Assembly: GCA_033762735.1 (NCBI GenBank)
Contig: JANRLJ010000218.1
Span: forward strand, 8,943 to 72,942
Length of the DNA stretch: 64,000 bases
Source of the DNA: a bacterium
GTDB taxonomy: Bacteria; Chloroflexota; Anaerolineae; Aggregatilineales; Phototrophicaceae
Reading direction: 5' to 3'
This document shows, one piece after another, positions 962 through 35,378 of this stretch. A program made the translations under genes and the position numbers. A model generated the notes under the pieces. It saw only the letters and a program-made list of their open reading frames with translations. It was not told where the DNA came from and searched no databases. The stretch's first letter is position 1, and every line of letters starts with the position of its first letter.

Positions 962-2308
962 TTGCCAGAATACCAACTGCCGTTATTCAGTGATTCCGCG
1001 TTCCCCTCCATTCCGTCCGAAACGCGCACCCTCGCCGCTATGGGAACCTTCAAGGACAGTAAAAGGGCACCCATACACAGTTGGTTCAAATACCCTGCTG
1101 GCTATTCCAACCAGTTTGTAGCAGACATTATGCAACGGTTCGATATTCTACCCGGACATTGGATATACGACCCTTTCAGCGGTACGGGCACGACGCTCGT
1201 TTGTGCTAAACAAGCCGGCATTAATGGTTATGGTGTTGAAGCGCATTCCTTCGTGCATTGGGTGGCGCAAGTCAAGTTATTCTGGGAATTTGACAAATCT
1301 ACCTTTGGGTCAACCGTTGATGATCTCCTTCAACAAGCACGGGACTTCGTTGGTTCAAAAGCCAGTTCGACCTCAACAGAAGGCGCGTTCCCCGAACTGA
1401 TTTACAAATGCTATCATCCACAAACCCTGATTGAACTTTATCTTTTACGGGAATTCATCTCCAAAGAGATCGTAGACGAACCCCTCAAAAACTGGTTCAA
1501 ACTGGCTCTGACCGATACTCTGCGCACTGCCGCCGCCGCCGGAACAGGCTGGCCCTATATCGCTCCCAACAAAAATACTGGGGACAAACCACCCAAGGAT
1601 GCACTTCGCCTGTTTGAAAAAACTGTGAAAAAGATGGCAGAGGATTTGTTTTACGCAGGGCATTCAAAGCACAAGTGTGAAATTCACAATATCCTGGGGG
1701 ACTCACGGCAGCAGCAATCCCTCTCCGAGCAGCAGATCGACCTGGGATTAACTTCTCCCCCCTACCTGAATAATTATGATTACGCTGATCGGACTCGTCT
1801 GGAAACGTACTTCTGGGGTATCGCTCAAAGCTGGAAAGACATAACCGATCAGTTCAGGAACAAACTTATGGTGGCTGCCACCACACAGATTGTGCGTAAA
1901 AATTTCGATGTTGAAAGCACACTATCTGAAGACGTTCGTGCCATTAGTCCCAACGTTTACACTGCTGTACAGACCGCCGTACTGGAGTTGTCGAAGCGCC
2001 GTCCTCAAAAAGGCGGGAAAAAAGACTATGATCTGATGGTCGCATTGTATGTCAACGACATTCTGGCGGTACTTAAGGAAGCCTATCGCACTTTACGACG
2101 GGGCGGGCATTTTTGTTTGGTCCTGGGAGACTCAGCACCTTATGGAGTTCATATCCCGACCGAAACCATTGTCGGAGAACTTGGGTTAGGGCTGGGGTTT
2201 TCTGAATTTACCTACGAGGAATTTCGTACTCGCGGCGGAAAATGGAAGGACAATCCACAACGCCACACCGTTCCCCTGCGCGAAGGTATGGTCACTCTTA
2301 AAAAGTAA
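962..2308 (+). CDS. N6-adenine/N4-cytosine DNA methyltransferase (motif I before motif IV order)
   Basis: TTG start with GGAGAT upstream. An AdoMet motif I (DPFSGTGTT) lies near the N-terminus and a catalytic motif IV (TSPPY) at about aa 265. The region is lower in GC than its flanks and a candidate restriction-endonuclease gene sits 37 nt downstream. Confidence 0.8.
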   Translation: MPEYQLPLFSDSAFPSIPSETRTLAAMGTFKDSKRAPIHSWFKYPAGYSNQFVADIMQRFDILPGHWIYDPFSGTGTTLVCAKQAGINGYGVEAHSFVHWVAQVKLFWEFDKSTFGSTVDDLLQQARDFVGSKASSTSTEGAFPELIYKCYHPQTLIELYLLREFISKEIVDEPLKNWFKLALTDTLRTAAAAGTGWPYIAPNKNTGDKPPKDALRLFEKTVKKMAEDLFYAGHSKHKCEIHNILGDSRQQQSLSEQQIDLGLTSPPYLNNYDYADRTRLETYFWGIAQSWKDITDQFRNKLMVAATTQIVRKNFDVESTLSEDVRAISPNVYTAVQTAVLELSKRRPQKGGKKDYDLMVALYVNDILAVLKEAYRTLRRGGHFCLVLGDSAPYGVHIPTETIVGELGLGLGFSEFTYEEFRTRGGKWKDNPQRHTVPLREGMVTLKK

Positions 2309-2345
2309 TGTTTACCCTGTAATAAGCGTGTAGAGTTGCACAAAA

Positions 2346-3323
2346 ATGCCTAAATCAAAACCAGTAAAAATTTACTCTTCAGACGACGGGCAGGCCGCCG
2401 CAAGCAAGTTTGGTCAGATGCTTGGCGATGCGTTTGCGTCGGTCGTGTACCAGCATATTCAGCGCTACTTGGCGCGTCAGTATCCGCAGTATGTCCTGTT
2501 GGAACCGGAAGATGGCCGAAAACTGGTAAAGTTCGACATGCTGGGAGGAACCTTACGGCAACTGGACAACGTTATCATCGAGGTAAATTCGATTGACCCT
2601 GTTGCCCTGTTTGAAACAAAGTGGTTGAAGGATGGTCGGCATCATAATGACAAAGGCGCGTGGATTCTTCAACTGAGAGAGATCAGCCGCCGCCACCCCA
2701 CAGTACGCGGTATGGTTGCAAACCTGGCCGGATACTGGACAGAGGGTGTCCGTGTGATGTTTGAGAGTGAAGGGCGCGTGAGGATGGTGCTGGTTGCAAC
2801 GGATGTTGAGGTTTACAGCACACTCCAACCTCACATCGACACTTATACCCAGGCCAATCATTTAGAAGCTCTTAAGCTTGATAACATCCGGGCAATTCGT
2901 AACAGGCTTCCCCGTGCCTGGGACTTAGCCAACTGTCTGGCAGCACTCAAACAAGCAGGCGTACTTGACCAAATTGCACAGGCGTGGCTGTCTTTTGAAA
3001 GAGATCAGGATGCGGGTGGCAATCCAATCGATGGCGCAGGTCTGATCGAGGCGGCTATTGATAAAGTTCTTAAACCACTTCCTGAAAATCCCCGTATTGT
3101 TGGTTTTGAGATTTCGCTTCAAGTGGAGTCGGGTAACGTAATTCATCAGGGATTTACAGACCTGGAAGAAGCCCTGGAATTCATGCAGCGCTATACCACC
3201 AATCCACAGGCAGTTCTCGAAACGATTACACCTAAAGAAAAGGCCTCCGCTTCCCTGGAGGAGGAAATTGCCTCCTTTGATGAAGCGAACAGCAAAGACT
3301 TATCGGACGAGCTTTCGGAATAA
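2346..3323 (+). CDS. Hypothetical protein; candidate type II restriction endonuclease partner of the upstream methyltransferase
   Basis: Co-oriented and 37 nt downstream of the MTase, in the same lower-GC block. I recognise no conserved family; the call rests on gene context only. Confidence 0.4.
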   Translation: MPKSKPVKIYSSDDGQAAASKFGQMLGDAFASVVYQHIQRYLARQYPQYVLLEPEDGRKLVKFDMLGGTLRQLDNVIIEVNSIDPVALFETKWLKDGRHHNDKGAWILQLREISRRHPTVRGMVANLAGYWTEGVRVMFESEGRVRMVLVATDVEVYSTLQPHIDTYTQANHLEALKLDNIRAIRNRLPRAWDLANCLAALKQAGVLDQIAQAWLSFERDQDAGGNPIDGAGLIEAAIDKVLKPLPENPRIVGFEISLQVESGNVIHQGFTDLEEALEFMQRYTTNPQAVLETITPKEKASASLEEEIASFDEANSKDLSDELSE

Positions 3324-6273: not shown

Positions 6274-7269
6274 ATGAGAACCCACATGCGCTCCCTCACT
6301 GTTGGTCTGATGATCGCGCTGGTCGTGCTGCTCAGTGTGCCGCTGCTTCATTCAAGCACCGTTCGCGCTGACGACTCCGCCGATCAAGGCCTGCCCTTCT
6401 TCCGGCAGGACATCCTCACCTACACCCGCTTTAATCCCGCTGTCGGCCAGTACGGCGATTATGAGATCGTCTTCCATGACCTGCTGAGTGGTGGCCGCTA
6501 CACGCTGCCTATCCCCCCCTATCAGGACTTTTATGGCTGGAGCGAGACAGGTCGCTTTGCCTTCCTCTCCGATGTGGAGGGCAACACCGAAGTCTATATA
6601 TGGGAAGAGGGCAAGCTGACCAACATCAGCCAGCATCCGATGAACGACTGGCGGCCAGCGATCAGCCCCGATGGACGGGTGGCCTTCGCCTCTGAGCGCG
6701 ACGGCAACATGGAAATTTACGTGTGGGACGGGGAAGGGCTGACCAATGTGAGCCAGTCCCCCGCTTATGAGGATTACCCGGCGCTCAGCAGTGATGGGCG
6801 GATTGCCTATGTGCGCGGTGATGATGAACTCGTCATTCGGGACATCGGCGCTAAGCAGACCATCCTCGGCCAATTCCCCCGTTTTTTCGCACCCGCGTGG
6901 AGCCGAGACGGGGAGCTTGCCACACTCCAGACCAACGAGGGCTATCCCTACCGGGTTAACCTGTTTCGGCAGGGCATTCCCGTCATCCTCCACGACACCG
7001 GCACCTATACCCGCTTTGCCTGGAGCCGGGATGGGCGGCTGGCCTTTACAGCAGGCAGTGACATTTACGTTTGGGACGGCGAAGCGACGACGCCGCTGAT
7101 CGAACACGAGGCGCAGGACTTCTCGCCTGCGTGGAGTTCAGACGGGCGGCTGGCGTTTGTCTCCATGCGTGAAGGCTACAGCGCGATCTATGTGCGTGAA
7201 CTGGATGGCACGATTCGGCGCATCACCGCCCCGAACGAAAGCGTGAGCGCCCCGGTGTGGAAGCCATGA
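6274..7269 (+). CDS. TolB-like/PD40 beta-propeller repeat protein (secreted)
   Basis: Repeated PD40 motifs (SPDGRVAFASERDGNMEIYVWDGEG and similar). A signal peptide follows the internal ATG at 6274. The upstream part of ORF 6106.. is repeat sequence and is not coding. Confidence 0.7.
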   Translation: MRTHMRSLTVGLMIALVVLLSVPLLHSSTVRADDSADQGLPFFRQDILTYTRFNPAVGQYGDYEIVFHDLLSGGRYTLPIPPYQDFYGWSETGRFAFLSDVEGNTEVYIWEEGKLTNISQHPMNDWRPAISPDGRVAFASERDGNMEIYVWDGEGLTNVSQSPAYEDYPALSSDGRIAYVRGDDELVIRDIGAKQTILGQFPRFFAPAWSRDGELATLQTNEGYPYRVNLFRQGIPVILHDTGTYTRFAWSRDGRLAFTAGSDIYVWDGEATTPLIEHEAQDFSPAWSSDGRLAFVSMREGYSAIYVRELDGTIRRITAPNESVSAPVWKP

Positions 7270-7288
7270 GCGGCATCAGAGAAGGTGC

Positions 7289-7714
7289 CTATTCTGCCAG
7301 CAGCCAGGCGATGGCTTCCTCGCGCTGGTCGGGGCGGAACAGGCGCACAATTTCGGTCGAACTGCGCAGCATTTGAATAAAAGAATTCACAATCGAGATA
7401 AACGTGTTGTCGATCAGCAGGGCGATGCGGCTGCTCTGGCGCTGAGGGAAACGATCCGCAAAGGACCGACCGCGCTGGAAGGCATACGTCAGCGGCACAA
7501 TGCCGACGGTCGAATCCACCAGCATCAGGAAAGGCTCGCCGGGCTGGCGAGCGGCTCGCAGAATTTCCAACTGCGCCAGCCATTCATCGACTACCTGGCG
7601 TGAAGGCTTATGGAAGACAAATTCGTGCCAGGTTGTGGCGGCTTCGGTTCGCAGGGTGTAGGAGAGATGCGTTACCTGGTCGGTTTTGTGCTCAATGGGC
7701 GTGTTCATCATCAT
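7289..7714 (-). CDS. Hypothetical protein
   Basis: Clean ORF with ATGATGATG start codons following GAAGG. I do not recognise a family. It is divergent from the SWIM operon promoter region. Confidence 0.45.
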   Translation of the reverse strand: MMMNTPIEHKTDQVTHLSYTLRTEAATTWHEFVFHKPSRQVVDEWLAQLEILRAARQPGEPFLMLVDSTVGIVPLTYAFQRGRSFADRFPQRQSSRIALLIDNTFISIVNSFIQMLRSSTEIVRLFRPDQREEAIAWLLAE

Positions 7715-7971
7715 TAACCTTCGTTGTTGCTGCATAGAGATGAATCTTTGCAGCATCATACATCACTTCACCACAGCGCGTAAGGATTTTCATAACTTTT
7801 TCGTGCAGATATAGCCATTCGGCCACAGGGCATGTAGAACAAAAATTCAATTCGGAGATGAGAACATTTGTGCGTTCTTTACACAAGCCTAAGCCTTTTT
7901 TGGCATGAATGTCCTGTAGAATGCAGGATAGCATGAGCGAATTCAGCAGCAGGTAGACTCAACAGACCTTT

Positions 7972-9336
7972 ATGCCACTGACGTTAAGCGAAGATCACAT
8001 TTTCACCCTCAGCGGTGATACCGGTGTTTTGAAGGACGGGCGCAAGCTGGCGACCCCTGCCAAATGGTCAGACGTGGGCGCGAGTGACGAGGCCGCCTGG
8101 GGAGCGTGCCAGGGCAGCGCGAAGGAACCGTATAAGGTCGCGGTTGATCTGGGCGGCGGCGAACCGGGCTATAAGTGCAACTGCCCCAGCCGCAAGTTCC
8201 CCTGCAAGCACGCCATCGGCCTGCTGTATCTGATCCTCAATCAGCAGCCCGCCGCGCAGGAACCGCCCGGTTGGGCATCGAGCTGGCTGGCTGGCCGCCG
8301 ACAACGCGCGGAAGCGAAAGCGAATACTGCATCCAGAACGGACTCGGATGCGCCTTCGCCCGCGACCATCAAAAGCGAAGCGGCGCGGGAGGCGGCGCGA
8401 GAGGCCAAAGTCCGCGCCGGGATGGAAGAACTGCGGCTGTGGCTGCGCGATCTGGCGCGGCGTGGTCTGGCGGACAGCACCATCAAGACCTATGAATTCT
8501 GGGATCGCATGGCGGCGCGGCTGGCTGATGCCCAGGCCAGTGCGCTGGCGAAACGGCTGCGGGCGCTGGCCGGGCTGCCCTTCCAGGTCAAGACGGACTG
8601 GACGACGCGGATGCTGGACGAAATCGGGCGGATTCATCTGCTGGTGGAGGCTTATTTCCGCCTCGATACACTCCCGCCGGATTTGCAGGAGGACGTGCGC
8701 ACGCTGATCGGCTGGACGACCAAAAAGGAAGAGGTCGAGGCGCTGCCCGGTCTGCGCGATCTGTGGTGGGTGATGGGACAGTACGACGACGTGGAAGATC
8801 GCCTCAAGGTGCGCCGCGCCTGGGTGTATGGGCAGCGCAGCGGCCAGACCGCCCTGCTGCTGGCGTTCGCCTTCGGGAATGCCTCGCTCGACTTCAATTA
8901 CACACCGGGGCAGTCGTTCGAGGCGGAACTGGCCTTCTATCCGAGTGCCTATCCGCAGCGGGCGGTGCTGAAACAGATGCACAGCGCCGTTCATCGTCCC
9001 ACTTTGTCGGCAGGCGTGGTGCCGCACGGCTTCCTCTATGACGATTTCGAGTCAGCGTTTGCGGCCTATGCCGAGGCGCTGGCGCAAAACCCCTGGCTCG
9101 ACCGCTTCCCGATGGGGCTGCGCGGGGCGCTGCCGCTCAACCGGGCCAACAGCTATGTGATTCGTGACGTGCAGGGGCGTATCGTGCCAATGCAGTTGTA
9201 TAGCGGCCTCACGATCAGTCTGCTGCTGTTCCCGGCGCTGACGGGCGGGCATCCGATTCCGGTCTTCGGTGAATGGAACGGCTACGACTTCCGGCTTATC
9301 ACCCTCGTCTCCGACGGCGCGATGGTCGAGATGTGA
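7972..9336 (+). CDS. SWIM zinc-finger family protein
   Basis: A CxCxnCxH SWIM motif (YKCNCPSRKFPCKH) near the N-terminus. It is the first gene of a five-gene co-oriented cluster. Confidence 0.75.
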   Translation: MPLTLSEDHIFTLSGDTGVLKDGRKLATPAKWSDVGASDEAAWGACQGSAKEPYKVAVDLGGGEPGYKCNCPSRKFPCKHAIGLLYLILNQQPAAQEPPGWASSWLAGRRQRAEAKANTASRTDSDAPSPATIKSEAAREAAREAKVRAGMEELRLWLRDLARRGLADSTIKTYEFWDRMAARLADAQASALAKRLRALAGLPFQVKTDWTTRMLDEIGRIHLLVEAYFRLDTLPPDLQEDVRTLIGWTTKKEEVEALPGLRDLWWVMGQYDDVEDRLKVRRAWVYGQRSGQTALLLAFAFGNASLDFNYTPGQSFEAELAFYPSAYPQRAVLKQMHSAVHRPTLSAGVVPHGFLYDDFESAFAAYAEALAQNPWLDRFPMGLRGALPLNRANSYVIRDVQGRIVPMQLYSGLTISLLLFPALTGGHPIPVFGEWNGYDFRLITLVSDGAMVEM

Positions 9337-9344
9337 GGGATGTA

Positions 9345-9616
9345 TCGAGTACTGAGTGGTGAGTACCGAGTGATGAGGCATGAGTAGGGGCGCACCTATG
9401 TGTGCGCCCGTAAAGGGCAAAGAAAAAGATTTGACGCAAAGGTTCGCAAAGAAACGGGAGATGGTAGGGGCGCACCTATGTGTGCGCCCGTAAAGGACAA
9501 AGAAACGGGATTGATGTCGTAGGGACACGGCATGCCGTGTCCGGCACAACCCAACCTGAACGACCAACCGATTTGTTGCAACCTTCCCGTAGGGGCGACG
9601 TGCGCGTCGCCCGTAC
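9345..9616. repeat. Composite REP-like block: GAGTACCGAGT satellite plus four GTAGGG-stem-loop-CCCTAC palindromes and an AAGATTTGACGCAAAGGTTCGCAAAG module
   Basis: Palindromes seen directly at 9384-9412, 9464-9492, 9519-9542 and 9589-9616. The same modules recur at 14005-14880 and 16172-16340. Confidence 0.85.
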
Positions 9617-9673
9617 ACAAGCCAGCATCACAACCGCTGTTAACCAAATTTAAGGTGATTAAACGAACATAAC

Positions 9674-10579
9674 ATGACCACCGCCGATACGTTATGGGAC
9701 GCCCTGCTCCCCGCCGCACTGCTGGGCACGGAGCGCCACACGCTGCAACTGCCGCCAGATGCGCCGCAGGTCTTACACGGCTTGCCCACGACCGATCCCG
9801 AAGCGCGGCTGCTGGCGACCGCCGCGACCGCTGCCATGATGCGCCGTTCCGGTCACATCCCGCCGGAAGACACCCACCTGCTGCCCGACCCTGCGCCGGA
9901 GGAAACGCTGCCTGTATGCACGCCGCGCTCTGCAAGGCGGCTCAATACCCTGCTCGGCCAAACGCTCGGTCAGGGACGCCCGCCATCACTATCGCTGTTG
10001 ATTGAATGGATGCACATCATCAGGCAGCGGGGGAAGCGCGTACCGTACTCGGTGCTGCCTGCTCTGCTTGATCTGACTTATCGCCAGCGCAGTGATGTGG
10101 ATTTCGTCCGCTTGGTCAGCGAGGTTATGGGCGAACGCGGGGGCTGGCTGGCACAGACGAATATGCGGTTTGAATACCTCCTCCATCCCCAACAGCCGCT
10201 TGAGAACGACTCATCGACGATACAGGCCGACAGAGATGCGCGGGAAGCACCTATCCTCGAACAGCTTCAGGAGGAAAGCGGCGCAGCCCTGAACGAGGCT
10301 GTTCAGCAATTGAGAGACATCACCTACACCTGGAGCGATACACTTACGACACTGTTCACCGAACGGATGGTGACGCTGATCGATCAGGCACCGCCGAGCA
10401 TTTTCACCGCCCTTCACTGGTACGATGTGCTGTTCGCCGCCCAAATCCCGCCCCATCGCCTGGAGGAGGTTCTGGCACGGCTGAAAAATATGCCAGAGGA
10501 AAAGCTGTCCTATCTGAAACGCCTGATCGACAAAATCGAATTTCGCCGCGACATGCTATTGGAGCTTGCCAATGAGTAA
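9674..10579 (+). CDS. DUF5691-like protein (second gene of SWIM/MoxR/vWA cluster)
   Basis: Position and size match the conserved uncharacterised cluster partner. The family name is recalled from annotation of similar clusters and is not verifiable here. Confidence 0.5.
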   Translation: MTTADTLWDALLPAALLGTERHTLQLPPDAPQVLHGLPTTDPEARLLATAATAAMMRRSGHIPPEDTHLLPDPAPEETLPVCTPRSARRLNTLLGQTLGQGRPPSLSLLIEWMHIIRQRGKRVPYSVLPALLDLTYRQRSDVDFVRLVSEVMGERGGWLAQTNMRFEYLLHPQQPLENDSSTIQADRDAREAPILEQLQEESGAALNEAVQQLRDITYTWSDTLTTLFTERMVTLIDQAPPSIFTALHWYDVLFAAQIPPHRLEEVLARLKNMPEEKLSYLKRLIDKIEFRRDMLLELANE

Positions 10580-11666
10580 CCAACCCAACACCGTCCAGCG
10601 CCGCCACGCCGAGGAAGAATACGCCGAAGAACTGTACGAACTGGCGAAGGCCGATACACGCCAGCGCCCGCCCAACTGGGCACTCTCACCCTGGGCGGTG
10701 GCGACCTATCTGCTCGGCGGGACGCTGGACAACGGCTACACCATCACGGCCAAGTACATCGGAGACCGCCGCCTGATCGAAATTGCGATTGCGACGCTGG
10801 CGACCGACCGCGCCCTGCTGCTGCTGGGCGTCCCCGGCACGGCCAAATCGTGGGTGTCTGAGCATCTCACGGCGGCTATCTGCGGCGACTCGACGCTGCT
10901 GGTGCAGGGGACAGCGGGCACGTCGGAAGAAGCCATGCGCTACGGCTGGAACTATGCGCGGCTGCTGGCGGAAGGCCCCTCGGAAAATGCGCTGGTCGCC
11001 AGCCCACTGATGCGGGCGATGGCCGAGGGCAAAATCTGCCGTGTGGAAGAACTGACGCGCATCCCCGCCGATGTACAGGACACACTGATTACGGTGCTTT
11101 CCGAGAAGACGCTGCCCATACCCGAACTGAACAGCGAGGTGCAGTCCGTCAAGGGCTTCAACGTGATCGCCACCGCCAATGACCGCGACCGGGGCGTGAA
11201 CGATATGTCCAGCGCCCTCACCCGCCGCTTTAACACCGTCGTGCTGCCCACGCCCGCCACGTTGGACGAAGAGGTCGAGATCGTCCGCCAGCGCGTCGGC
11301 AGCCTGGGGCGGATGCTGGAACTCCCGGCGGAAACACCCGCGCTGGAGGAGATGCGCCGCGTGGTGACGATCTTCCGCGAACTGCGGCACGGCCTCACGC
11401 TCGATGGGCAGACGCGGCTCAAGTCGCCCTCGTCCACGCTCAGCACCGCCGAGGCGATTTCGGTCGTCACGCAGGGGCTTTCGCTGGCGGCGCATTTCGG
11501 CAGCGGGACGCTCACCGCGCGCGATGTTGCCGGGAGCGTGGTCGGCGCGGTGGTTAAGGACCCCACGCAGGATCGCACGATCTGGCTGGAATATCTGGAA
11601 ACCGTCGCCCGCACCCGCCCGGACTGGACGGATTTGTACGAGGCCTGCCGTGAGGTGACGCGGTGA
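10566..11666 (+). CDS. MoxR-like AAA+ ATPase (AAA_5 type)
   Basis: Walker A (GVPGTAKS), a Walker B-like CRVEEL, and a sensor/arginine region (NVIATANDRDRG). It overlaps its neighbours by a few nt, which indicates operon coupling. Confidence 0.8.
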   Translation: MPMSNQPNTVQRRHAEEEYAEELYELAKADTRQRPPNWALSPWAVATYLLGGTLDNGYTITAKYIGDRRLIEIAIATLATDRALLLLGVPGTAKSWVSEHLTAAICGDSTLLVQGTAGTSEEAMRYGWNYARLLAEGPSENALVASPLMRAMAEGKICRVEELTRIPADVQDTLITVLSEKTLPIPELNSEVQSVKGFNVIATANDRDRGVNDMSSALTRRFNTVVLPTPATLDEEVEIVRQRVGSLGRMLELPAETPALEEMRRVVTIFRELRHGLTLDGQTRLKSPSSTLSTAEAISVVTQGLSLAAHFGSGTLTARDVAGSVVGAVVKDPTQDRTIWLEYLETVARTRPDWTDLYEACREVTR

Positions 11667-13993
11667 GCGCCAGTTCTAAAAAAGGCGGGTCACGCTCCGT
11701 CCACTTCTTCGGCATCCGGCATCACGGCGTTGGCTCCGCGCGGAGTCTGCGCCGTGCGCTGGAACAATTGCAGCCGGACGCGGTGCTGATCGAAGGCCCG
11801 CCGGATGCCGATAAGCTGATCGCGCTGGCATCTCATGCCGACATGCGGCCACCTGTCGCGCTGCTGATCTATAACCCCACACAGCCCCGCGAGGCGGCCT
11901 GGTATCCGTTCGCGGTCTATTCGCCCGAATGGCAGGCGATTCAATACGCGCTGGGGAATAAAATTCCGGTCACATTTATGGATCTGCCGCAGAAGCACCA
12001 GCTTCCGCTGCTGTATGCGCCGCCCGCTGAGGCCGAAGCACCGCCGGAAGACACCGACGCGGATGCCGATGCGGGCGAGGACGCGGGCGAAAACGCGCTG
12101 CTTGAAGCCGAACCCGCCGACATGCCTCCGCCGGTCGATTCCGCCGCGCTGTTACGCCTCGATCCGCTGCAAGCGCTGGCGCAGGCCGCTGGCTACAGCG
12201 ACAGCGAACGCTGGTGGGAGCACATGATCGAGGAACGGCAGAGCGGCGAGACGATTTTCGAGGCTATTCAGGAAGCGATGACCGCGCTGCGGGATGCGAC
12301 AGGCGCTCATCCCGACCCCGGCTACGCGCATCGGGAAGCCCTGCGCGAGGCATGGATGCGCAAGACCATCCGCGCGACGGAGAAGAAAGCGACACGGCTG
12401 GCGGTGATCTGCGGCGCATGGCATGTTCCCGCTTTGCTCGACCGGACGAATGTGGCGGCGGACGACGCGCTGCTCAAAGGACTGCCTTCGGTGGCGACCA
12501 CCGCCACCTGGACGCCCTGGACGTACAGCCGTCTCTCGCGGGACAGCGGCTATGGCGCGGGCATCACCTCGCCGGGGTGGTATCAACACTTGTGGGATAC
12601 CGCGCCTGACCAGATCACCATGCGCTGGATGTCGCGCGTGGCGGGGCTGCTGCGCGGGCAGGATTTTTCCGCCTCCACCGCGCAGGTCATCGACGGCGTG
12701 CGCCTGGCGGAAGCGCTGGCGGCGCTGCGCGGGAGGCCGCTGCCGGGTCTGGACGAGATGAACGAGGCGGCACTGGCCGTGTTCTGCCGGGGAGACTCCG
12801 CCCCCCTCAACCTGATTCGGCGCGACCTCATCATCGGGGATGCGCTGGGCGAAGTGCCGCCGGATGCGCCCACCGTCCCGCTCCAGCGTGATCTGGAATT
12901 GCAGCAGAAGGCGCTGCGGCTCAAGCCCGCGCTCGATGAAAAAATCCATGACTTCGATCTGCGCAAGCCCAATGATCTGGCGCGGAGTCGTCTGCTCCAT
13001 CGGCTGCGGCTGCTGCAAATTGAGTGGGGGGTGCGCCAGCAGAACCAGGTGCAGGCCACCGGGACATTTCATGAGTTCTGGAAGCTGGCGTGGAAGCCCG
13101 AATTTGCCATCGCGGTGATCGAGGCCAGCATGTGGGGCAACACGATTCAGGATGCGGCGGCAGCCAGAGTGCGCGACCAGGCCGAAACCAGCGACAGCCT
13201 CCTGCCCATTACGGCGCTGTTGGAGGATGTGCTGCTGGCCGATCTGCCGGAAGCGGCGGAGATCGTGCTGAATCGGCTGGAATCGGTCGCGGCGCTGACG
13301 AGCGATGTGGCCGTGCTGATGGACTCGCTGCCCGCGCTGGTCGATGTGCTGCGCTATGGCAACGTTCGTAAAACGGATACAGCGCTGGTGGCGCAGGTGG
13401 TCGATGGGCTGGTGATGCGCGTGTGCGTGGGACTTGCCCCGGCCTGCGCCTCGCTCGACGATGATGCGGCGGCGCTGATGTACAACCGCCTCAATCAGAC
13501 GCATTCAGCCATCACGCTGCTGCAAAACGCCGACTATACCGCCCACTGGCAGGGGGCATTGGCGGAGGTGGCCGATTTACGCGCCGGGCATGGATTGGTC
13601 GTGGGGCGGGCGGTGCGTCTGCTGCGCGATGCCGGGATTCTTTCGCCGGAGGAAGTCGCACGGCGGCTGCGGCTGGCGCTGTCGCGGGCGGTCGAACCGG
13701 CGCAGGCAGCGGCCTGGGTGGAAGGCTTTCTCAAAGGCAGCGGCGCGGTGCTGCTGTATGACGATACACTGTTCACCACGCTCGATTCGTGGCTGGCGCT
13801 GCTCCCCGGCGACACGTTTGATCTGCTGCTGCCGCTGCTGCGACGGACCTTCTCGACCTTCGCGTCGCCCGAACGCCGTCAGATCGGGGAGCGGGCGCGG
13901 CACGGCGTCCGCCAGCGGAGCGATCAACTGCTGCTGGACGAAGCACGGACGGCGAAGGTGCTGCCCATGCTGGAGCGGCTGCTGGGCATATAG
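11663..13993 (+). CDS. DUF5682-like large protein (fourth gene of cluster)
   Basis: 776 aa. The start overlaps the stop of the AAA ATPase gene (ATGA-type coupling). I see no recognisable catalytic motifs. Confidence 0.5.
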   Translation: MSASSKKGGSRSVHFFGIRHHGVGSARSLRRALEQLQPDAVLIEGPPDADKLIALASHADMRPPVALLIYNPTQPREAAWYPFAVYSPEWQAIQYALGNKIPVTFMDLPQKHQLPLLYAPPAEAEAPPEDTDADADAGEDAGENALLEAEPADMPPPVDSAALLRLDPLQALAQAAGYSDSERWWEHMIEERQSGETIFEAIQEAMTALRDATGAHPDPGYAHREALREAWMRKTIRATEKKATRLAVICGAWHVPALLDRTNVAADDALLKGLPSVATTATWTPWTYSRLSRDSGYGAGITSPGWYQHLWDTAPDQITMRWMSRVAGLLRGQDFSASTAQVIDGVRLAEALAALRGRPLPGLDEMNEAALAVFCRGDSAPLNLIRRDLIIGDALGEVPPDAPTVPLQRDLELQQKALRLKPALDEKIHDFDLRKPNDLARSRLLHRLRLLQIEWGVRQQNQVQATGTFHEFWKLAWKPEFAIAVIEASMWGNTIQDAAAARVRDQAETSDSLLPITALLEDVLLADLPEAAEIVLNRLESVAALTSDVAVLMDSLPALVDVLRYGNVRKTDTALVAQVVDGLVMRVCVGLAPACASLDDDAAALMYNRLNQTHSAITLLQNADYTAHWQGALAEVADLRAGHGLVVGRAVRLLRDAGILSPEEVARRLRLALSRAVEPAQAAAWVEGFLKGSGAVLLYDDTLFTTLDSWLALLPGDTFDLLLPLLRRTFSTFASPERRQIGERARHGVRQRSDQLLLDEARTAKVLPMLERLLGI

Positions 13994-14004
13994 GGAAAAA
14001 GAAT

Positions 14005-14880
14005 AAATGGCGACGCAAAAACCCAAAGAAGAAGGGAAAAGAAAAAGATTTGACGCAAAGCCGCAGCGCCAATTTGCGCGAATGCAAAGGTTCGCAAAGA
14101 GAAGGATGGCTGTAGGGGCGCACCCGTGTGTGCGCCTGTAATGCAAGAGAAAAAGGCGACACAAAGCCGCAGCGCCAATTTGCGCGAACGCAAAGGTTCG
14201 CAAAGTGAAGGATGGCTGTAGGGGCGCACCCGTGTGTGCGCCCGTAACACAAGAGAAAAAGGCGACGCAAAGCCGCAGCGCCAATGTGCGCGAACGCAAA
14301 GGTTCGCAAAGAAGAAGAGAAAAGAAAAAGGCGACGCAAAGCCGCAGAGAACGCAAAGGTTCGCAAAGTGAAGGATGGCTGTAGGGGCGCACCCGTGTGT
14401 GCGCCCGTAACACAAGAGAAAAAGGCGACGCAAAGCCGCAGAGAACGCTAAGGTTCGCAAAGTGAAGGATGGCTGTAGGGGCGCACCCGTGTGTGCGCCT
14501 GTAATGCAAGAGAAAAAGGCGACGCAAAGCCGCAGCGCCAATTTGCGCGAACGCAAAGGTTCGCAAAGAAGAAGAGAAAAGAAAAAGGCGACGCAAAGCC
14601 GCAGAGAACGCTAAGGTTCGCAAAGAGAAGGATGGCTGTAGGGGCGCACCCGTGTGTGCGCCCGTAACACAAGAGAAAAAGGCGACGCAAAGCCGCAGCG
14701 CCAATGTGCGCGAACGCAAAGGTTCGCAAAAAGAAGAGAAAAGGCGACGCGAAGATGCAAAGGTTCGCAAAGAGAAGAATGGCTGTAGGGGCGCACCCGT
14801 GTGTGCGCCTGTAATGCAAGGACACGGCATGCCGTGTCCCTACAAAGGCAATAAAGGGCGACGCACCGCATCGCCCCTAC
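14005..14880. repeat. Complex tandem repeat array (non-CRISPR), roughly 95-165-bp units
   Basis: Six copies of GTAGGGGCGCACCCGTGTGTGCGCC(C/T)GTAA at 14113, 14218, 14381, 14475, 14638 and 14785. The sequence between copies is itself repeated (GCGACGCAAAGCCGCAG, CGCCAATTTGCGCGAACGCAAAGGTTCGCAAAG). Two further palindromes lie at 14819-14843 and 14864-14880. Confidence 0.9.
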
Positions 14881-14924
14881 GACTACGATTGTGCGCGACT
14901 TTTTCAAAGGCTGACGGCTGATCG

Positions 14925-14990
14925 CTGACAGCTAAAAGCTAAAAGCTAACAGCTAAAAGCTAACCGCTAATTGCTAACTGCTAACAACTG
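14925..14990. repeat. AGCTAA(A/C) hexa/heptamer microsatellite
   Basis: AGCTAAAAGCTAAAAGCTAACAGCTAAAAGCTAACCGCTAATTGCTAACTGCTAAC lies directly upstream of the vWA gene. Related GCTAAC/GCGATTAGC runs occur at 27255-27300, 42915-42945 and 43030-43065. Confidence 0.8.
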
Positions 14991-15003
14991 AGGACTCTCC
15001 CAG

Positions 15004-16170
15004 ATGACCCACGACACTCCCGACGAACGCCTGCGCCGCTGGCGACTGATCCTCGGCGGCGAAAACGACGGCACCGAATGCAAGCTGGGCCAGCGCGACA
15101 GGGACATTGACCAGGCGTTAGGCGCCCTCTATGGGGGAGGGGATGGCAGCGTGATGGGAAAACCCGCCGGGCGCGAAGGTTCGCTGGGTGCGTCAGCGCC
15201 GAATGTCGCCCGCTGGTTGGGCGATATCCGCACCTACTTCCCGGCGTCGGTCGTGCGCGTGATGCAAAAGGACGCGCTGGAACGGCTGAACCTCAAGCAA
15301 ATGCTGCTGGAGCCGGAAATGCTGGAAGCCGTCGAGCCGGATGTACATCTGGTGGCGACGCTGCTCTCGCTCAACCGCATCATGCCCGACCGCACGCGAG
15401 ACACCGCCCGGCAGGTTGTGCGCCGCGTGGTCGATCAACTGGAACGCCGTTTGCGCCGCAAAACCGAACAGGCCGTGCTGGGCAGCCTGAACCGCGCCGC
15501 CCGCAACAACCGCCGCCCTCGCCATAACGAGATCGACTGGAACAAGACCATCCGCGCCAATCTGAAGCATTACCAACCGGAATATAAGACCATTATCCCC
15601 GAACGGCGCTTCGGCTATGGACGCAAGCAGCAGCGGCTGCGCGACATTGTGCTGTGCGTCGATCAGAGCGGGTCGATGGGAACGTCAGTGGTGTATTCGA
15701 GCATCTTCGGGGCGGTGCTGGCTTCGCTCAAGGCCGTCAGCACGCAGATGGTGGTGTTCGATACAGCGGTGGTCGATCTGACTGCCGAACTGCGCGACCC
15801 GGTGGAACTGCTGTTCGGGACTCAGCTCGGCGGCGGGACGGACATCAACCGCGCACTCGCCTACTGTCAGGGCATTATCCGCCGCCCATCGCAGACGATT
15901 CTGGTGCTCATCAGCGATCTGTACGAAGGCGGCGATGCGGAGTCGATGCTGCGGCGGGTCGGGGCGCTGGTCGGTTCTGGTGTGCAGATGGTGGCGCTGC
16001 TGGCGCTTAATGATGACGGTGCACCAGTCTATGACAAGAAGCACGCGGCAACCTTCGCGGCGATGGGCGTTCCTGCCTTCGCCTGCACGCCTGACCTGTT
16101 CCCTGATCTGATGGCGGCGGCCATCGAACGGCGCGACCTCTCGCAGTGGGCGGCGGCCAATTTGGAGTAA
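15004..16170 (+). CDS. von Willebrand factor A (vWA) domain protein
   Basis: MIDAS DxSxS (VDQSGSMG), with downstream T (GGGTDIN) and D (LISDLYEGG) residues. It is the fifth gene of the cluster and is separated from gene 4 by the repeat array. Confidence 0.8.
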   Translation: MTHDTPDERLRRWRLILGGENDGTECKLGQRDRDIDQALGALYGGGDGSVMGKPAGREGSLGASAPNVARWLGDIRTYFPASVVRVMQKDALERLNLKQMLLEPEMLEAVEPDVHLVATLLSLNRIMPDRTRDTARQVVRRVVDQLERRLRRKTEQAVLGSLNRAARNNRRPRHNEIDWNKTIRANLKHYQPEYKTIIPERRFGYGRKQQRLRDIVLCVDQSGSMGTSVVYSSIFGAVLASLKAVSTQMVVFDTAVVDLTAELRDPVELLFGTQLGGGTDINRALAYCQGIIRRPSQTILVLISDLYEGGDAESMLRRVGALVGSGVQMVALLALNDDGAPVYDKKHAATFAAMGVPAFACTPDLFPDLMAAAIERRDLSQWAAANLE

Positions 16171-16171
16171 C

Positions 16172-16340
16172 CGTGTTTGGTCACGGGCGCACACGTGGGT
16201 GCGCCCCTACAGCATCCATTCTCTTTGCGAACCTTTGCACCTCTACGCCTGTGCGTCGCCGTTTTCTTATCCCTTATGCTTTGCGAACCTTTGCATCTTT
16301 GCGCCTTTGCGTCAAATCTTTTAACGCTTTTTTGCCGTTT
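16172..16340. repeat. Inverted copy of the 14005-14880 repeat modules
   Basis: TACGGGCGCACACGTGGGTGCGCCCCTAC, CTTTGCGAACCTTTGC (x2) and CTTTGCGTCAAATCTTTT are reverse complements of the upstream array modules. Confidence 0.85.
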
Positions 16341-16343
16341 TCC

Positions 16344-18602
16344 CTACGGCGTATCCTCTCCCGCCAGCAGCGACCCGTGCTCGAACAGCATCTTTTCCAG
16401 AAAGGTCGCCTGTTCCTCCGCCGTCATCGGGCGCGGACGGGCGAAGTCCTCAATCACGCCCGTGAACAGATCAACCGTCAGCAGTCGCCCGTCATAGAGA
16501 TAGAGCGTGTCCATGAAGAACTCACGGTTTTCCAGTTCCGGCTGATCGAAATACAGGTTGCCCAGCCCATGATGCAGGAAGGACTCGCGCCCGTCCACGC
16601 TGGCATGGAACTCGAACACCTGTGGGCGGTGCGCCTGTGTCCCCAGCACCACATCCGCGCCGATCTCCCCCAGCGTACGGAAATGGGTGAGCTGCCGTTC
16701 AATCGGATTATAGCGGTCATATTCGGCGTACTGCACCAGCACCACCACCACATCGACCTGTTGGCGCAGCGCGGGGATGGCCTCGCGCAGCCAGCCATCG
16801 ATCACGCAGTAGGCCGCGCCGGGACGTTCCTCACCGAGAAAATCACTGGCAAGGGCAAATTCCGGCCCATTCCAGTTGCAGGCGAACAGGCCGACTCGTG
16901 TACCGTTGTGCTCCACGATGAGCGGTGCGCGGGCTTCGGTCACGCTTTCCCCGCCGCCGACCGTCTGCATCCCGGCCTCGCGATACATCTCCAGACTGCG
17001 GCGGTAGACGTTAAAGCCGTAGTCATTGTTGTGGTTGCCCGTCAGTTCGAGGATGTCCACGCCGAGCAGCGTGAGCAGGTCGAAATGCGCGTCCTTGCTG
17101 CACAGCCCGCCTAAAACGGGTTCGTCGGCTTCGGGGCAGCGCGGCGCAAACGACACTTCATTGCTGACATGGAAAAAGTCTGCCGTGCTGACATAGGGCA
17201 GAATGCCTTCCGCCGCCCATTCGACTCCGTTATTGTCCAGCGCGGTCAGGGTGTTACGGGCTAAGGCCGTCACGCCGGAAAAGGTCATGCGCGTCAGCAG
17301 CGCAGGGTCGAAATTGGGCGACTCGGACTCGAAGGCGAAGGGATACGTGGGCATGTCCAGCGGGTGCAGATCGCCCTCTGAGGTCTGAATCCGCAGCACC
17401 CGATAGCGCGGCGTGAGCGCATCAAAGGCCAGCAGCGTATAGCGGTCGGGATTCTCCCACAGGAACGCCTGCAACTGATCCGGCGGGAGCACCCGGTTAA
17501 ACGGATCGACCGGGACGCCGTGTTCGATTAAGGCCTCGGCGGTGGCGGAATCCAGCACCAGCGCGGGATCGACCTCGCCATTCAGAATACGGTTGAGGCG
17601 GTCGAGATCGAGCCGGGTTTGTGTGCTGCGAAAGGCGGTGGCGGGGAGAAAGAGAGACACGCTTTCGGACAAGCCCTCACCCCCCTGGCGAACTTGTTCG
17701 CCCCCACTCTCCCTTATAGAGAGGGGGAGAGCACTCGCGGTGGCTTCTGAAGTAGCTTCTGCTTGCGTTGTGATGGTTTCCTGTGAAGGAGCCTCCCACC
17801 CGACGCTGTAGAAGGCGAGGTATTCGGCCACATGCGACGACCAGTAGGCGTTGTTGTGTTCGCCTTCGGGATAGACGATGTAGTCATGCGGCAGGCCGCG
17901 CGTGGTCAGATTGTCGTGCATCAGATCGAAGCCGTACTGCGCATAATCGTCGCGCCCGCGATCCAGCCAGATGCGCAGGGATTCAATGCCGGGTGCATTC
18001 AGCGCCAGATCAAGCGGGTTGAAGTCTGGCGGGGCGTTCTGTGGGTCGAAAAAGGCACTGTGTCCGCCGACGGTGCTGAACAGCGCGGGATTGCGGAAGG
18101 CGATGTGGAACGCCCAGAATCCCCCACGCGAGATGCCGCCGATAGCACGGGTGGCCCGGTCAGTGGAGACGCGGTGATTCGCTTCCACGTCGGGCAGCAG
18201 TTCCGTCAGGAAGACGTTCTCCCAGGAGAGGCGGTCAAAGCGGTTCTCGTTCGCCATCCACGCGCCATAGGGCATGACGACCACGAACGGCGGCAGCACA
18301 CCCGCTTCGATTCCGGCGTCCATCGCCTGCGGCAGTCCCAGATCCACCCACAGGCGATTGGTCGAGTTCGAGCCGTGCATCAGATACAGCACCGGATAGG
18401 TCGCGTCGGTCTGCGCATAGCAGGGAGGCAGATAGACGGTATACACCAGTTCCAGATCAACCAGTTCGCTGGAATAGGTGCGGTCGATCACGCGCCCTTC
18501 TGTTGACGTGCATCTCTGCGCCTGGGCGGGAACAGGCCGCAGGACGAGCGCGACGAGCAGGCTGAGGGCGAAAACAAACGGCATCCATGAGAGTCGGCGC
18601 AT
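16344..18602 (-). CDS. Secreted fusion protein: esterase-family alpha/beta hydrolase plus CapA-like (poly-gamma-glutamate capsule biosynthesis / metallophosphatase) domain
   Basis: Signal peptide, then esterase features (LYLMHGSNS, GGISRGG), then a CapA-like C-terminal half. The interdomain linker is encoded by a MITE-like sequence at 17641-17760. Confidence 0.65.
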   Translation of the reverse strand: MRRLSWMPFVFALSLLVALVLRPVPAQAQRCTSTEGRVIDRTYSSELVDLELVYTVYLPPCYAQTDATYPVLYLMHGSNSTNRLWVDLGLPQAMDAGIEAGVLPPFVVVMPYGAWMANENRFDRLSWENVFLTELLPDVEANHRVSTDRATRAIGGISRGGFWAFHIAFRNPALFSTVGGHSAFFDPQNAPPDFNPLDLALNAPGIESLRIWLDRGRDDYAQYGFDLMHDNLTTRGLPHDYIVYPEGEHNNAYWSSHVAEYLAFYSVGWEAPSQETITTQAEATSEATASALPLSIRESGGEQVRQGGEGLSESVSLFLPATAFRSTQTRLDLDRLNRILNGEVDPALVLDSATAEALIEHGVPVDPFNRVLPPDQLQAFLWENPDRYTLLAFDALTPRYRVLRIQTSEGDLHPLDMPTYPFAFESESPNFDPALLTRMTFSGVTALARNTLTALDNNGVEWAAEGILPYVSTADFFHVSNEVSFAPRCPEADEPVLGGLCSKDAHFDLLTLLGVDILELTGNHNNDYGFNVYRRSLEMYREAGMQTVGGGESVTEARAPLIVEHNGTRVGLFACNWNGPEFALASDFLGEERPGAAYCVIDGWLREAIPALRQQVDVVVVLVQYAEYDRYNPIERQLTHFRTLGEIGADVVLGTQAHRPQVFEFHASVDGRESFLHHGLGNLYFDQPELENREFFMDTLYLYDGRLLTVDLFTGVIEDFARPRPMTAEEQATFLEKMLFEHGSLLAGEDTP

Positions 18603-21533: not shown

Positions 21534-21965
21534 TCACCGCATCAAATCCTTAAAGTTAAGCAGAAAACGCAGTGCGCGGTGCGGCGTGTTGATGAATTCG
21601 TCGGCGTCGAACGGCTGCTGCAAAAAGCTGCTGAGTCCGTCCAGGTCTTCCTGAGACAGCTTCTCCCTGATCGTATCCACGTTGGAAAAGCCCATCGCCC
21701 ATTCCCCGAACAGGCGCTCCTCGGTCTTGCCGGAAAGCAGCGTGCGCATGGCGTGATGGCGCGGGTCGGTGGCGATCTTCTGATGCAGCTTGAGTACCGC
21801 ATCTTCGGGGCCTTCCAGCAGTTGGATGAAGTTCCCGCCCTTGTAGAGCAGCAGCCCGGTAATGCCGAGTGGGTTGTTGTTGCGGCGGCTGGCACGCAGA
21901 ATATCGAGGATGTCGTCCTGGGTAATGCCGTGCACGGCGGAACTGACGTACAGCAAATACATCAT
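21534..21965 (-). CDS. BLUF domain photoreceptor (short type)
   Basis: MMYLLYVS, NNxxxGITGLLLY and FIQLLEG motifs carrying the conserved Tyr/Gln/Asn. Confidence 0.85.
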   Translation of the reverse strand: MMYLLYVSSAVHGITQDDILDILRASRRNNNPLGITGLLLYKGGNFIQLLEGPEDAVLKLHQKIATDPRHHAMRTLLSGKTEERLFGEWAMGFSNVDTIREKLSQEDLDGLSSFLQQPFDADEFINTPHRALRFLLNFKDLMR

Positions 21966-35375: not shown

Positions 35376-35378
35376 CGA

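What the first reader, a model, noticed from the sequence alone, without database searches (positions are those of the whole stretch)
7972..16170. Five-gene SWIM / DUF5691-like / MoxR AAA / DUF5682-like / vWA cluster of unknown function
Five co-oriented genes with overlapping or tightly spaced junctions (10566/10579, 11663/11666) encode:
- a SWIM zinc-finger protein
- a small protein of unknown function
- a MoxR-class AAA+ ATPase with an intact Walker A, a Walker B-like motif and a sensor/arginine-finger region
- a 776-aa protein of unknown function
- a vWA protein with a complete MIDAS
MoxR ATPases normally act with a cognate vWA protein, and MoxR-vWA modules combined with large partner proteins have been proposed as NTP-dependent conflict or signalling systems. 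To my knowledge this particular five-gene arrangement has no experimentally assigned function. The window also holds other defence-type loci (two R-M cassettes, a DUF433/DUF5615 pair, a TIR protein), and the cluster is uniquely invaded by repeat arrays. A defence-like role is an inference from the MoxR-vWA pairing only.
Basis: partly seen in the sequence, partly recalled or inferred. Interest (0 to 1): 0.8.

Follow-up and report, generated by a model that had tools for sequence, protein, structure and literature searches.

The report
YehLMPQ-type MoxR–vWA operon, function unknown
The five genes are real and form a widespread, conserved ATP-driven protein-remodelling module related to the uncharacterised E. 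coli yehLMPQ operon, but nothing in its genomic context supports the suggested anti-phage defence role.

Summary
All five + strand genes are present at the stated coordinates and belong to the stated families: SWIM, a short-form DUF5691, a MoxR AAA+ ATPase, DUF5682 and a CoxE-type vWA protein. Catalytic motifs are intact.

YehL has been a named MoxR subfamily since 2006.

The gene order is conserved in 30 of 48 well-flanked loci from at least 8 phyla. SWIM and DUF5691 are fused in one genome.

Structure prediction adds two leads:
- DUF5682 is a TraB/TIKI/ChaN-like α/β domain with an invariant 2His/2Glu set, followed by an α-solenoid.
- The SWIM protein has a ZSWIM8-like SWIM region, a four-helix bundle and OB/HIN-like β-domains.

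A NADAR gene sits between DUF5682 and vWA in 10 loci.

The defence reading is not supported:
- The five proteins have no PADLOC hits.
- Flanking genes are unrelated between genomes.
- yehLMPQ is a single-copy chromosomal locus in 98.7% of 5,426 E. coli genomes.
- The family is almost absent from phages.

The best model is a dedicated MoxR–vWA remodelling machine acting on the TIKI-like DUF5682. I found no published function. The locus is a new member of a known but uncharacterised kind, of moderate interest.

The parts
7972..9336 (+). SWIM-domain protein (454 aa). It has an N-terminal SWIM zinc finger (C69, C71, C78, H80), a central helical bundle, and two C-terminal beta-rich domains (about 260-340 and 379-453).
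9337..9673 (+). Intergenic junction filled with REP-like GC hairpins (9384-9408, 9464-9488, 9523-9542, 9589-9616).
   Evidence: In related loci this junction has a median length of 18 nt.
9674..10579 (+). Short-form DUF5691 protein (301 aa). It keeps the N-terminal domain (ALLGTER, GERGxWLA) and the C-terminal FRRDML motif. It lacks the central HEAT-like stretch of about 220 aa.
   Evidence: Pfam E 1e-34, profile positions 2-154 of 491. Short-form relatives P0122-P0125. Alignment A5. SWIM and DUF5691 are fused in L032.
10566..11666 (+). MoxR-class AAA+ ATPase of the YehL subfamily (366 aa).
   Evidence: AAA_5 E 2e-37. 39% identical to E. coli YehL, E 9e-75. Catalytic residues invariant in 55 homologues. 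Closest solved structures are the midasin AAA domain and NorQ.
11663..13993 (+). DUF5682/YehM protein (776 aa). It has an N-terminal TraB/TIKI/ChaN-like alpha/beta domain (about 12-310, with a disordered acidic insert at 128-155) and a C-terminal alpha-solenoid.
13994..15003 (+). A 1-kb junction holding a tandem array of a composite 94-106-nt hairpin unit (14052-14820), further hairpins (14815-14880) and a GCTAACA heptamer array (14924-14986). In 10 related loci a NADAR gene occupies the same slot.
   Evidence: There is no + strand terminator-like site; 7 lie on the - strand. No Rfam family matches. NADAR.
15004..16170 (+). CoxE-type vWA protein (388 aa), YehP homologue. It has an N-terminal helical domain and a vWA domain with a complete MIDAS.
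   Evidence: VWA_CoxE E 6e-54. 36% identical to YehP, E 4e-77. D220, S222, S224 and D305 are invariant in 46 homologues.
16185..16297 (-). Inverted copy of the same repeat unit, just 3' of the vWA stop codon.

Best explanation
The cluster is the widespread five-gene form of the YehLMPQ-type operon. I read it as a self-contained, chromosomally inherited MoxR-vWA protein-remodelling machine whose client or effector is encoded in the same operon.

Proposed mechanism, by analogy with NorQ/NorD:
- The YehL-type ATPase forms a hexamer.
- The CoxE-type vWA protein docks on the ring and uses its MIDAS to grip an acidic residue on the target.
- ATP hydrolysis remodels that target.

The most likely target is DUF5682/YehM. 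Its gene overlaps the ATPase gene by 4 nt. It combines a TraB/TIKI/ChaN-like 2His/2Glu domain (a putative metal-dependent hydrolase or metal/haem-binding site) with an alpha-solenoid arm. Remodelling would activate, load or release this domain.

The SWIM protein and DUF5691 are fused in one genome. I propose they form the recognition or regulatory arm that selects the substrate or signal, possibly a nucleic acid.

Shown here: gene content, homology to yehLMPQ, synteny, intact catalytic motifs, and fold similarities. Inferred: complex formation, which protein is the client, the chemistry of DUF5682, and the ligand of the SWIM protein. The physiological process served is not known.
For: - Homology to E. 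coli YehL, YehM and YehP: E 9e-75, 4e-44 and 4e-77.
- All five genes are in the same order in 30 of 48 loci with enough flank, from Cyanobacteriota, Chloroflexota, Acidobacteriota, Verrucomicrobiota, Planctomycetota, Gammaproteobacteria, Bacteroidota and Armatimonadota.
- Junctions are tight or overlapping, with median gaps of 18-122 nt.
- SWIM and DUF5691 are fused in a 977-aa protein in L032.
- Walker A/B, sensor-1, arginine-finger and MIDAS residues are invariant.
- H20/H21, E44, E89 and H254 are invariant from this window to E. coli. This matches the 2His/2Glu catalytic set of the TIKI superfamily (PMC6254334).
- hhalign puts GIRHH...LIEGP in register with the TraB motifs of E. coli YbaP.
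- The MoxR-vWA working model comes from NorQD (PMC9976466 and PMC13036017).
- No conserved external neighbour exists that could serve as the client, so the client is probably internal.
Against: - There is no experimental data for any member.
- I could not check whether the invariant His/Glu residues cluster in the model.
- In 18 of 48 well-flanked loci the genes are split or partly missing locally, so strict co-operonic stoichiometry is not required.
- E. coli lacks DUF5691, and its SWIM protein YehQ is unrelated outside the SWIM motif. The recognition arm is therefore not conserved across the whole family.
Confidence: 0.5

Rival explanations
1. An NTP-dependent anti-phage or anti-plasmid conflict system. 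SWIM/DUF5691 would sense an invader, MoxR-vWA would set a threshold, and DUF5682 would be the effector.
For: - It is a multi-component ATPase/vWA system with a large partner and a possible nucleic-acid-binding SWIM/OB protein.
- An accessory NADAR gene is present in 10 loci.
- Distribution is patchy across many phyla.
- E. coli yehL and yehM are H-NS-bound and are de-repressed in hns/stpA mutants (PMC3686432).
- The window holds R-M cassettes and a DUF433/DUF5615 pair elsewhere.
Against: - None of the five proteins has a PADLOC hit.
- Flanks in 30 complete loci share no defence theme. Each PADLOC family is hit by at most 4 of 118 proteins (mads, MkoA, PD-T4-6 and IetA models). The commonest Pfam families in the same set are ABC transporters, histidine kinases and methyltransferases.
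- yehLMPQ is in 5,353 of 5,426 E. coli genomes as one chromosomal copy, unlike accessory defence islands.
- There is one doubtful phage record; plasmid hits are mostly non-mobilizable megaplasmids.
- No recognised toxin domain is present.
- The system is not among the vWA-MoxR conflict systems catalogued in PMC7159879, and the bpMoxR Pfam score is below its cut-off.
Confidence: 0.17
2. A CoxD/CoxE- or NorQ/NorD-like maturation factor for a metalloprotein encoded elsewhere. DUF5682's ChaN-like domain would hold or deliver haem or metal.
For: - The vWA protein falls in the VWA_CoxE family.
- NorQ is the closest solved stand-alone MoxR.
- MoxR-vWA pairs typically assist metal insertion (PMC13036017).
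- From memory only: the neighbouring E. coli yehG/H/I genes were once annotated molR (molybdate utilisation).
Against: - No metalloenzyme or cofactor-biosynthesis gene is a conserved neighbour.
- DUF4132/WGR genes like those next to yehLMPQ are absent from the window and from the other 80 loci.
- The molR link is an unverified recollection.
Confidence: 0.15
3. A nucleic-acid surveillance or repair module. The SWIM/OB protein would bind damaged or ADP-ribosylated DNA, with NADAR or UDG as optional base-processing partners.
For: - NADAR sits in the DUF5682|vWA slot in 10 loci from at least two phyla.
- A UDG-superfamily gene occupies the same slot in L003.
- A WGR-domain gene (yehF) lies near the E. 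coli operon.
Against: - The OB-like scores are modest and no DNA-binding motif was tested.
- Other genes inserted at these junctions are a miscellany: Uma2, FHA, DUF218, GNAT, fatty-acid hydroxylase.
- NADAR is absent from most loci and from this window.
- No nuclease, helicase or recombinase is part of the core.
Confidence: 0.1

Closest known systems
E. coli K-12 yehLMPQ operon (YehL subfamily of MoxR AAA+ ATPases)
   Same: The MoxR ATPase (39% identical), the DUF5682 protein (28%) and the VWA_CoxE protein (36%) are shared, and the order ATPase-DUF5682-vWA is kept on one strand. A SWIM-domain protein is also in the operon. No function is assigned to either system.
   Different: In E. coli the SWIM gene comes last, is 614 aa and is unrelated outside the SWIM motif. 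E. coli has no DUF5691 gene. Its operon sits next to WGR and DUF4132 genes, which are absent here.
NorQ/NorD, CoxD/CoxE and CbbQ/CbbO MoxR-vWA maturation pairs
   Same: A MoxR hexameric ATPase is paired with a vWA partner that carries a MIDAS and an N-terminal helical domain. The vWA protein here falls in the Pfam VWA_CoxE family, and NorQ is among the closest solved homologues.
   Different: Those pairs sit next to their client enzyme (NO reductase, CO dehydrogenase, Rubisco). Here there is no conserved external client. Three extra dedicated proteins are present instead: DUF5682, SWIM and DUF5691.
vWA-MoxR ternary conflict systems (VMAP, iSTAND and beta-propeller types; Kaur et al. 2020)
   Same: Both have a MoxR plus vWA core with a large third component. 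There is a weak sub-threshold match to the bpMoxR model (24 bits against a 27-bit cut-off).
   Different: There is no VMAP, iSTAND or beta-propeller component, no variable effector domains on the vWA protein, and no association with defence genes. The cluster is not mentioned in that survey.
TIKI/TraB/PrgY/ChaN/erythromycin-esterase superfamily (for the N-terminal domain of DUF5682)
   Different: There is no significant sequence-profile match. DUF5682 carries a large insert of about 120 residues with an acidic disordered loop, and is fused to an alpha-solenoid of about 450 residues.

Membership tests
YehLMPQ-type operon (YehL subfamily MoxR system) | MoxR ATPase orthologous to YehL | tested here: met
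   BLASTP gives 39% identity over the full length, E 9e-75.
YehLMPQ-type operon (YehL subfamily MoxR system) | DUF5682/YehM gene immediately downstream of the ATPase gene | tested here: met
   Pfam DUF5682 E 2e-269. 28% identical to YehM, E 4e-44. The two genes overlap by 4 nt.
YehLMPQ-type operon (YehL subfamily MoxR system) | CoxE-type vWA protein (YehP) with a MIDAS | tested here: met
   VWA_CoxE E 6e-54. 36% identical to YehP. DxSxS and D305 are invariant.
YehLMPQ-type operon (YehL subfamily MoxR system) | SWIM-domain protein homologous to YehQ | tested here: inconclusive
   Both proteins carry SWIM at residues about 55-88. Outside the motif there is no similarity: BLASTP E above 1, hhalign E 0.13.
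MoxR AAA+ ATPases | Walker A, Walker B, sensor-1 and arginine finger intact | tested here: met
   G88, G91, K94, S95, E161, E162, N205, R220 and R221 are present. All are invariant in 55 homologues except position 95, which is S or T.
vWA-MoxR ternary conflict systems (Kaur et al. 2020) | A VMAP, iSTAND or beta-propeller third component, with variable effector domains | tested here: not met
   Pfam finds none of these. bpMoxR scores 24 bits, below its 27-bit cut-off. The paper does not mention SWIM, YehL or YehP.
Known or candidate anti-phage defence systems (PADLOC-DB 2.0) | A match of any component to a defence-system model | tested here: not met
   All five proteins give 0 hits at E up to 0.01.
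Defence-island resident | Recurrent co-localisation with defence genes across genomes | tested here: not met
   Of 118 flanking proteins from 30 complete loci, no PADLOC family is hit by more than 4 (mads, MkoA, PD-T4-6, IetA). No Pfam family occurs in more than 4 either.
TIKI/TraB/ChaN/Ere superfamily (N-terminal domain of DUF5682) | Alpha/beta core fold with a parallel sheet | tested here: met
TIKI/TraB/ChaN/Ere superfamily (N-terminal domain of DUF5682) | Conserved 2His/2Glu catalytic set | tested here: inconclusive
   H20/H21, E44, E89 and H254 are invariant and lie at or just after strand ends. Spatial clustering and activity were not tested. Sequence-profile similarity is not significant.
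CoxD/CoxE- or NorQ/NorD-type metal-insertion systems | Genomic linkage to the client metalloenzyme | tested here: not met
   No conserved neighbouring enzyme family was found. The window flanks are unrelated genes.

The most novel reading that the evidence does not exclude
The YehLMPQ-type module is a previously unrecognised sensor-effector machine conserved from E. coli to cyanobacteria. A SWIM/OB-fold protein, with DUF5691, detects an aberrant nucleic acid or a modified (for example ADP-ribosylated) target. The MoxR-vWA motor then switches on a TIKI-like hydrolase in DUF5682. This would be a new class of chromosomally fixed stress or immune response, with NADAR as an optional reset enzyme.
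Probability: 0.12. Interest if true: 0.75.

Novelty: new member of a known kind. Interest (0 to 1): 0.38.

Why it matters
This is one of the large conserved multi-gene AAA+ systems that still has no known function. DUF5682 alone has 5,424 clusters at 50% identity, and the operon is core in E. coli.

The window adds no new kind of system. The comparative work gives testable handles in a genetically tractable relative, E. coli yehLMPQ:
- a putative 2His/2Glu hydrolase or metal site in YehM/DUF5682
- an OB-like putative ligand-binding part in the SWIM protein of the five-gene form
- a SWIM-DUF5691 fusion that predicts a physical complex
- a recurrent NADAR accessory gene

It also corrects a tempting but unsupported defence-system label.

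Tried and rejected
- Looking up the source contig by exact protein found nothing: window DUF5682, window vWA, and P0001. P0001 is named only 'MAG... [bacterium]', on a contig of 91,174 bp.
- Single-sequence and profile searches of the PDB with DUF5682, its N-terminal domain and the SWIM family found no significant match.
- Foldseek of the DUF5682 model against the PDB returned only alpha-solenoids, all with E above 0.01.
- A lenient Pfam scan of the DUF5682 N-terminal domain found no TraB, ChaN or Ere match.
- hhalign of the SWIM and DUF5691 family profiles against E. coli YehQ, YehK and YehI found nothing significant. YehQ therefore does not look like a fused SWIM+DUF5691.
- tblastn of YehI (DUF4132), YehF (WGR), YehQ and YehK against the window and the 80 related loci gave no hit.
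- An Rfam scan of 7000-17500 gave no hit.
- The promoter/terminator scan was no better than shuffles on the + strand.
- A CRISPR-like reading of the repeat array was rejected: the stretches between hairpins are themselves repeated, as a tandem composite unit.
- Truncation or pseudogene status for the 301-aa DUF5691 was rejected because the short form is conserved in other metagenomes.


Full report
**Observation.** The third overlaps the second by 14 nt and the fourth overlaps the third by 4 nt.

Pfam assigns the following:

| Gene | Family | E-value | Note |
|---|---|---|---|
| 7972-9336 | SWIM | 2e-6 | residues 54-87 |
| 9674-10579 | DUF5691 | 1e-34 | only profile positions 2-154 of 491 |
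| 10566-11666 | AAA_5 (MoxR-type) | 2e-37 | |
| 11663-13993 | DUF5682 | 2e-269 | full length |
| 15004-16170 | VWA_CoxE | 6e-54 | |

The functional motifs are present: Walker A GVPGTAKS (88-95), Walker B RVEE (159-162), sensor-1 N205, arginine finger R220/R221, MIDAS DQSGS (220-224) plus D305, and SWIM CNCPSRKFPCKH (69-80). The listed MoxR and MIDAS residues are invariant in 55 MoxR and 46 vWA homologues. The SWIM Cys/His residues are invariant in 51 homologues.

**The short DUF5691.** In most related loci this gene encodes about 500-530 aa. The 301-aa form here is not a truncation. Four metagenomic proteins of 289-300 aa align over 98-100% of it at 37-69% identity. One of them is followed by an overlapping AAA_5 gene. 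The alignment shows that the short form keeps the conserved N-terminal domain (ALLGTER, GERGxWLA) and the C-terminal FRRDML motif. It lacks about 220 central residues, which in the long form give a weak HEAT-repeat match.

**Repeats.** The two junctions that do not overlap (9337-9673 and 13994-15003) are filled with a REP-like hairpin family.
- Nine of the ten copies of GTAGGGGCGCACC..GTGCGCC in the 64-kb window lie between 9384 and 16210, against none expected by chance.
- The 1-kb junction holds a tandem array of a composite 94-106-nt unit and a GCTAACA heptamer array.
- One unit folds at -40.8 kcal/mol, z -2.96.
- There is no Rfam match.
- There is no + strand terminator-like site, while seven lie on the - strand.
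- The element is absent from all 83 other loci fetched.
- No coding sequence is interrupted.

**What it is related to.**
- The window ATPase is 39% identical to YehL (E 9e-75).
- The DUF5682 protein is 28% identical to YehM (E 4e-44).
- The vWA protein is 36% identical to YehP (E 4e-77).
- Pfam gives the same families for the E. coli proteins.
- YehL names one of the seven MoxR subfamilies defined by sequence and gene neighbourhood (PMC3893208).
- YehQ shares only the SWIM motif with the window protein, and E. coli has no DUF5691.

**Synteny.** A scan of one genome per species returned 249 relatives of the DUF5682 protein. I examined the best 80 loci, which are 45-55% identical. I built profile HMMs from those loci and searched their six-frame translations. 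All five genes occur in the same order on one strand in 30 of the 48 loci that have at least 5 kb upstream and 3 kb downstream. These loci come from Cyanobacteriota, Chloroflexota, Acidobacteriota, Verrucomicrobiota, Planctomycetota, Gammaproteobacteria, Bacteroidota and Armatimonadota. Median intergenic gaps are 18-122 nt. In an Isosphaeraceae MAG (L032) SWIM and DUF5691 are fused in one 977-aa protein, which predicts that the two interact. In the other 18 loci the set is split or partial, for example DUF5682 with vWA alone. The DUF5682 family is large: 5,424 clusters at 50% identity with E at or below 1e-3.

**Accessory genes.** In cyanobacterial and some other loci the MoxR|DUF5682 and DUF5682|vWA junctions hold inserted genes. 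Most are a miscellany: Uma2, FHA, DUF218, DUF4262, GNAT, fatty-acid hydroxylase. One recurs. A NADAR gene of about 146 aa (Pfam E 6.5e-44) lies between DUF5682 and vWA in 10 loci, from cyanobacteria and Acidobacteria. A UDG-superfamily gene sits in the same slot in L003. In this window that slot holds the repeat array.

**Structure-based leads.** The AF2 model of the DUF5682 protein is confident (pLDDT 87.5, pTM 0.82). It has an N-terminal alpha/beta domain with a disordered acidic insert, followed by an all-helical repeat region.
- H20, H21, E44, E89 and H254 are invariant from this window to E. coli YehM. They sit at or just after strand ends. This fits the 2His/2Glu catalytic set described for the TIKI/TraB/Ere superfamily (PMC6254334).
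- hhalign against E. coli YbaP (TraB family) aligns GIRHH...LIEGP with the TraB motifs, but without significance (E 0.16).
- Foldseek, Pfam and a PDB profile search gave nothing.
- I therefore treat the assignment as a moderately supported lead.

**Test of the defence interpretation.**
- PADLOC has no match for any of the five proteins.
- The immediate neighbours in the window are a PD40 propeller protein, a SpoIIAA-like protein, a PGA_cap/esterase protein, a sulphur transporter, BLUF proteins and ABC transporter parts.
- The methyltransferase cassettes and the DUF433/DUF5615 pair exist, but they lie about 4.6 to 18 kb away and are scattered.
- Across 30 complete loci, no Pfam family occurs in more than 4 of the 118 flanking proteins.
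- Each PADLOC family there is hit by at most 4 of the 118 flanking proteins (mads, MkoA, PD-T4-6 and IetA models). The commonest Pfam families in that set are ABC transporters, histidine kinases and methyltransferases.
- In E. coli, yehLMPQ is present in 5,353 of 5,426 complete genomes, with a median of one place per genome and 5,371 of 5,374 places on chromosomes. That is core-genome behaviour, unlike accessory defence islands.
- tblastn finds the DUF5682 protein in one doubtful 14-kb phage record. It also finds 41 plasmid records, 32 of them non-mobilizable, with large replicons among the best hits.
- The survey of vWA-MoxR conflict systems does not mention SWIM, YehL or YehP (PMC7159879).
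- One point in favour of foreign origin: E. coli yehL and yehM are H-NS-bound and are up-regulated in hns/stpA mutants (PMC3686432).

**Mechanism.** Work on NorQ/NorD shows how MoxR-vWA pairs operate. One vWA partner binds the ATPase hexamer, with a finger from the vWA domain in the central pore. The MIDAS binds the target, and ATP hydrolysis remodels that target (PMC9976466 and PMC13036017). The YehL-type cluster has no conserved external neighbour, so the client is most likely encoded in the operon. DUF5682 is the best candidate for three reasons: its gene overlaps the ATPase gene by 4 nt, it is always present, and it carries the only enzyme-like domain. I propose that MoxR-vWA activates or loads the TIKI-like site of DUF5682, and that SWIM plus DUF5691 form a recognition or regulatory arm. 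Complex formation, the chemistry and the ligand are all inferred. Confidence is about 0.5 for the general model. The rivals are a defence system (0.17), maturation of an external metalloprotein (0.15) and nucleic-acid surveillance (0.10).

**Literature and novelty.** No paper in the searchable library mentions DUF5682 or DUF5691. yehL/M/P/Q appear only in gene lists, strain tables or as a decoy protein. The system is therefore known as a gene cluster and as a MoxR subfamily, but it has no assigned function. This window holds a new member of that known kind. It has two local peculiarities: a conserved short DUF5691 and junctions colonised by a hairpin repeat. Interest is moderate. The open question is real and testable in E. 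coli, but this particular locus is not exceptional and its defence label is unsupported.

Noticed in passing
window 9384-9616, 14052-14880, 16185-16297 (inverted), 48118-48142: A REP-like hairpin family, GTAGGG-[GC-rich stem]-CCGTA, with three stem variants. It is strongly concentrated in the non-overlapping junctions of this one operon, and all copies inside the operon are co-oriented with transcription. Terminator-like sites occur only on the antisense strand. There is no Rfam family, and the element is absent from 83 related loci.
   Followed up: partly
window 14924-14986: A tandem array of nine GCTAACA-like heptamers lies directly upstream of the vWA start codon.
   Followed up: no
L009, L014, L016, L019, L020, L021, L026, L028, L055, L061 (between DUF5682 and vWA): A NADAR-domain gene of about 146 aa (Pfam E 6.5e-44) recurs at the DUF5682|vWA junction in cyanobacterial and acidobacterial loci. 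In L003 a UDG-superfamily gene occupies the same slot.
   Followed up: partly
L032:5824-8757: SWIM and DUF5691 are fused into a single 977-aa protein in an Isosphaeraceae MAG.
   Followed up: yes
window 962-3323 and 34392-36263: Two cassettes each pair an N6/N4 DNA methyltransferase with an unannotated ORF of about 325 aa. Their GC3 (0.51-0.59) is markedly lower than that of neighbouring genes (0.7-0.8), which suggests recent horizontal acquisition.
   Followed up: partly
window 24893-25461 (-): A DUF433/DUF5615 (PIN-like) gene pair is confirmed by Pfam. It is probably a toxin-antitoxin-like module and is unrelated to the cluster.
   Followed up: partly
window 21534-22499 (-): Two adjacent small BLUF (blue-light FAD sensor) proteins of 141-143 aa.
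   Followed up: no
L006, L017, L020 (between MoxR and DUF5682); L074, L067, L073: Cyanobacterial versions of the operon often carry Uma2-family endonuclease genes or small gene pairs at the same junctions. These junctions appear to be preferred landing sites for selfish or unrelated genes.
   Followed up: partly
L001 (E. coli NC_000913 2196474-2203911): Directly upstream of yehLMPQ, E. coli carries yehF (WGR domain), the yehH pseudogene and yehI (DUF4132, 1,210 aa). None of these has a counterpart near the window cluster or the 80 related loci.
   Followed up: yes
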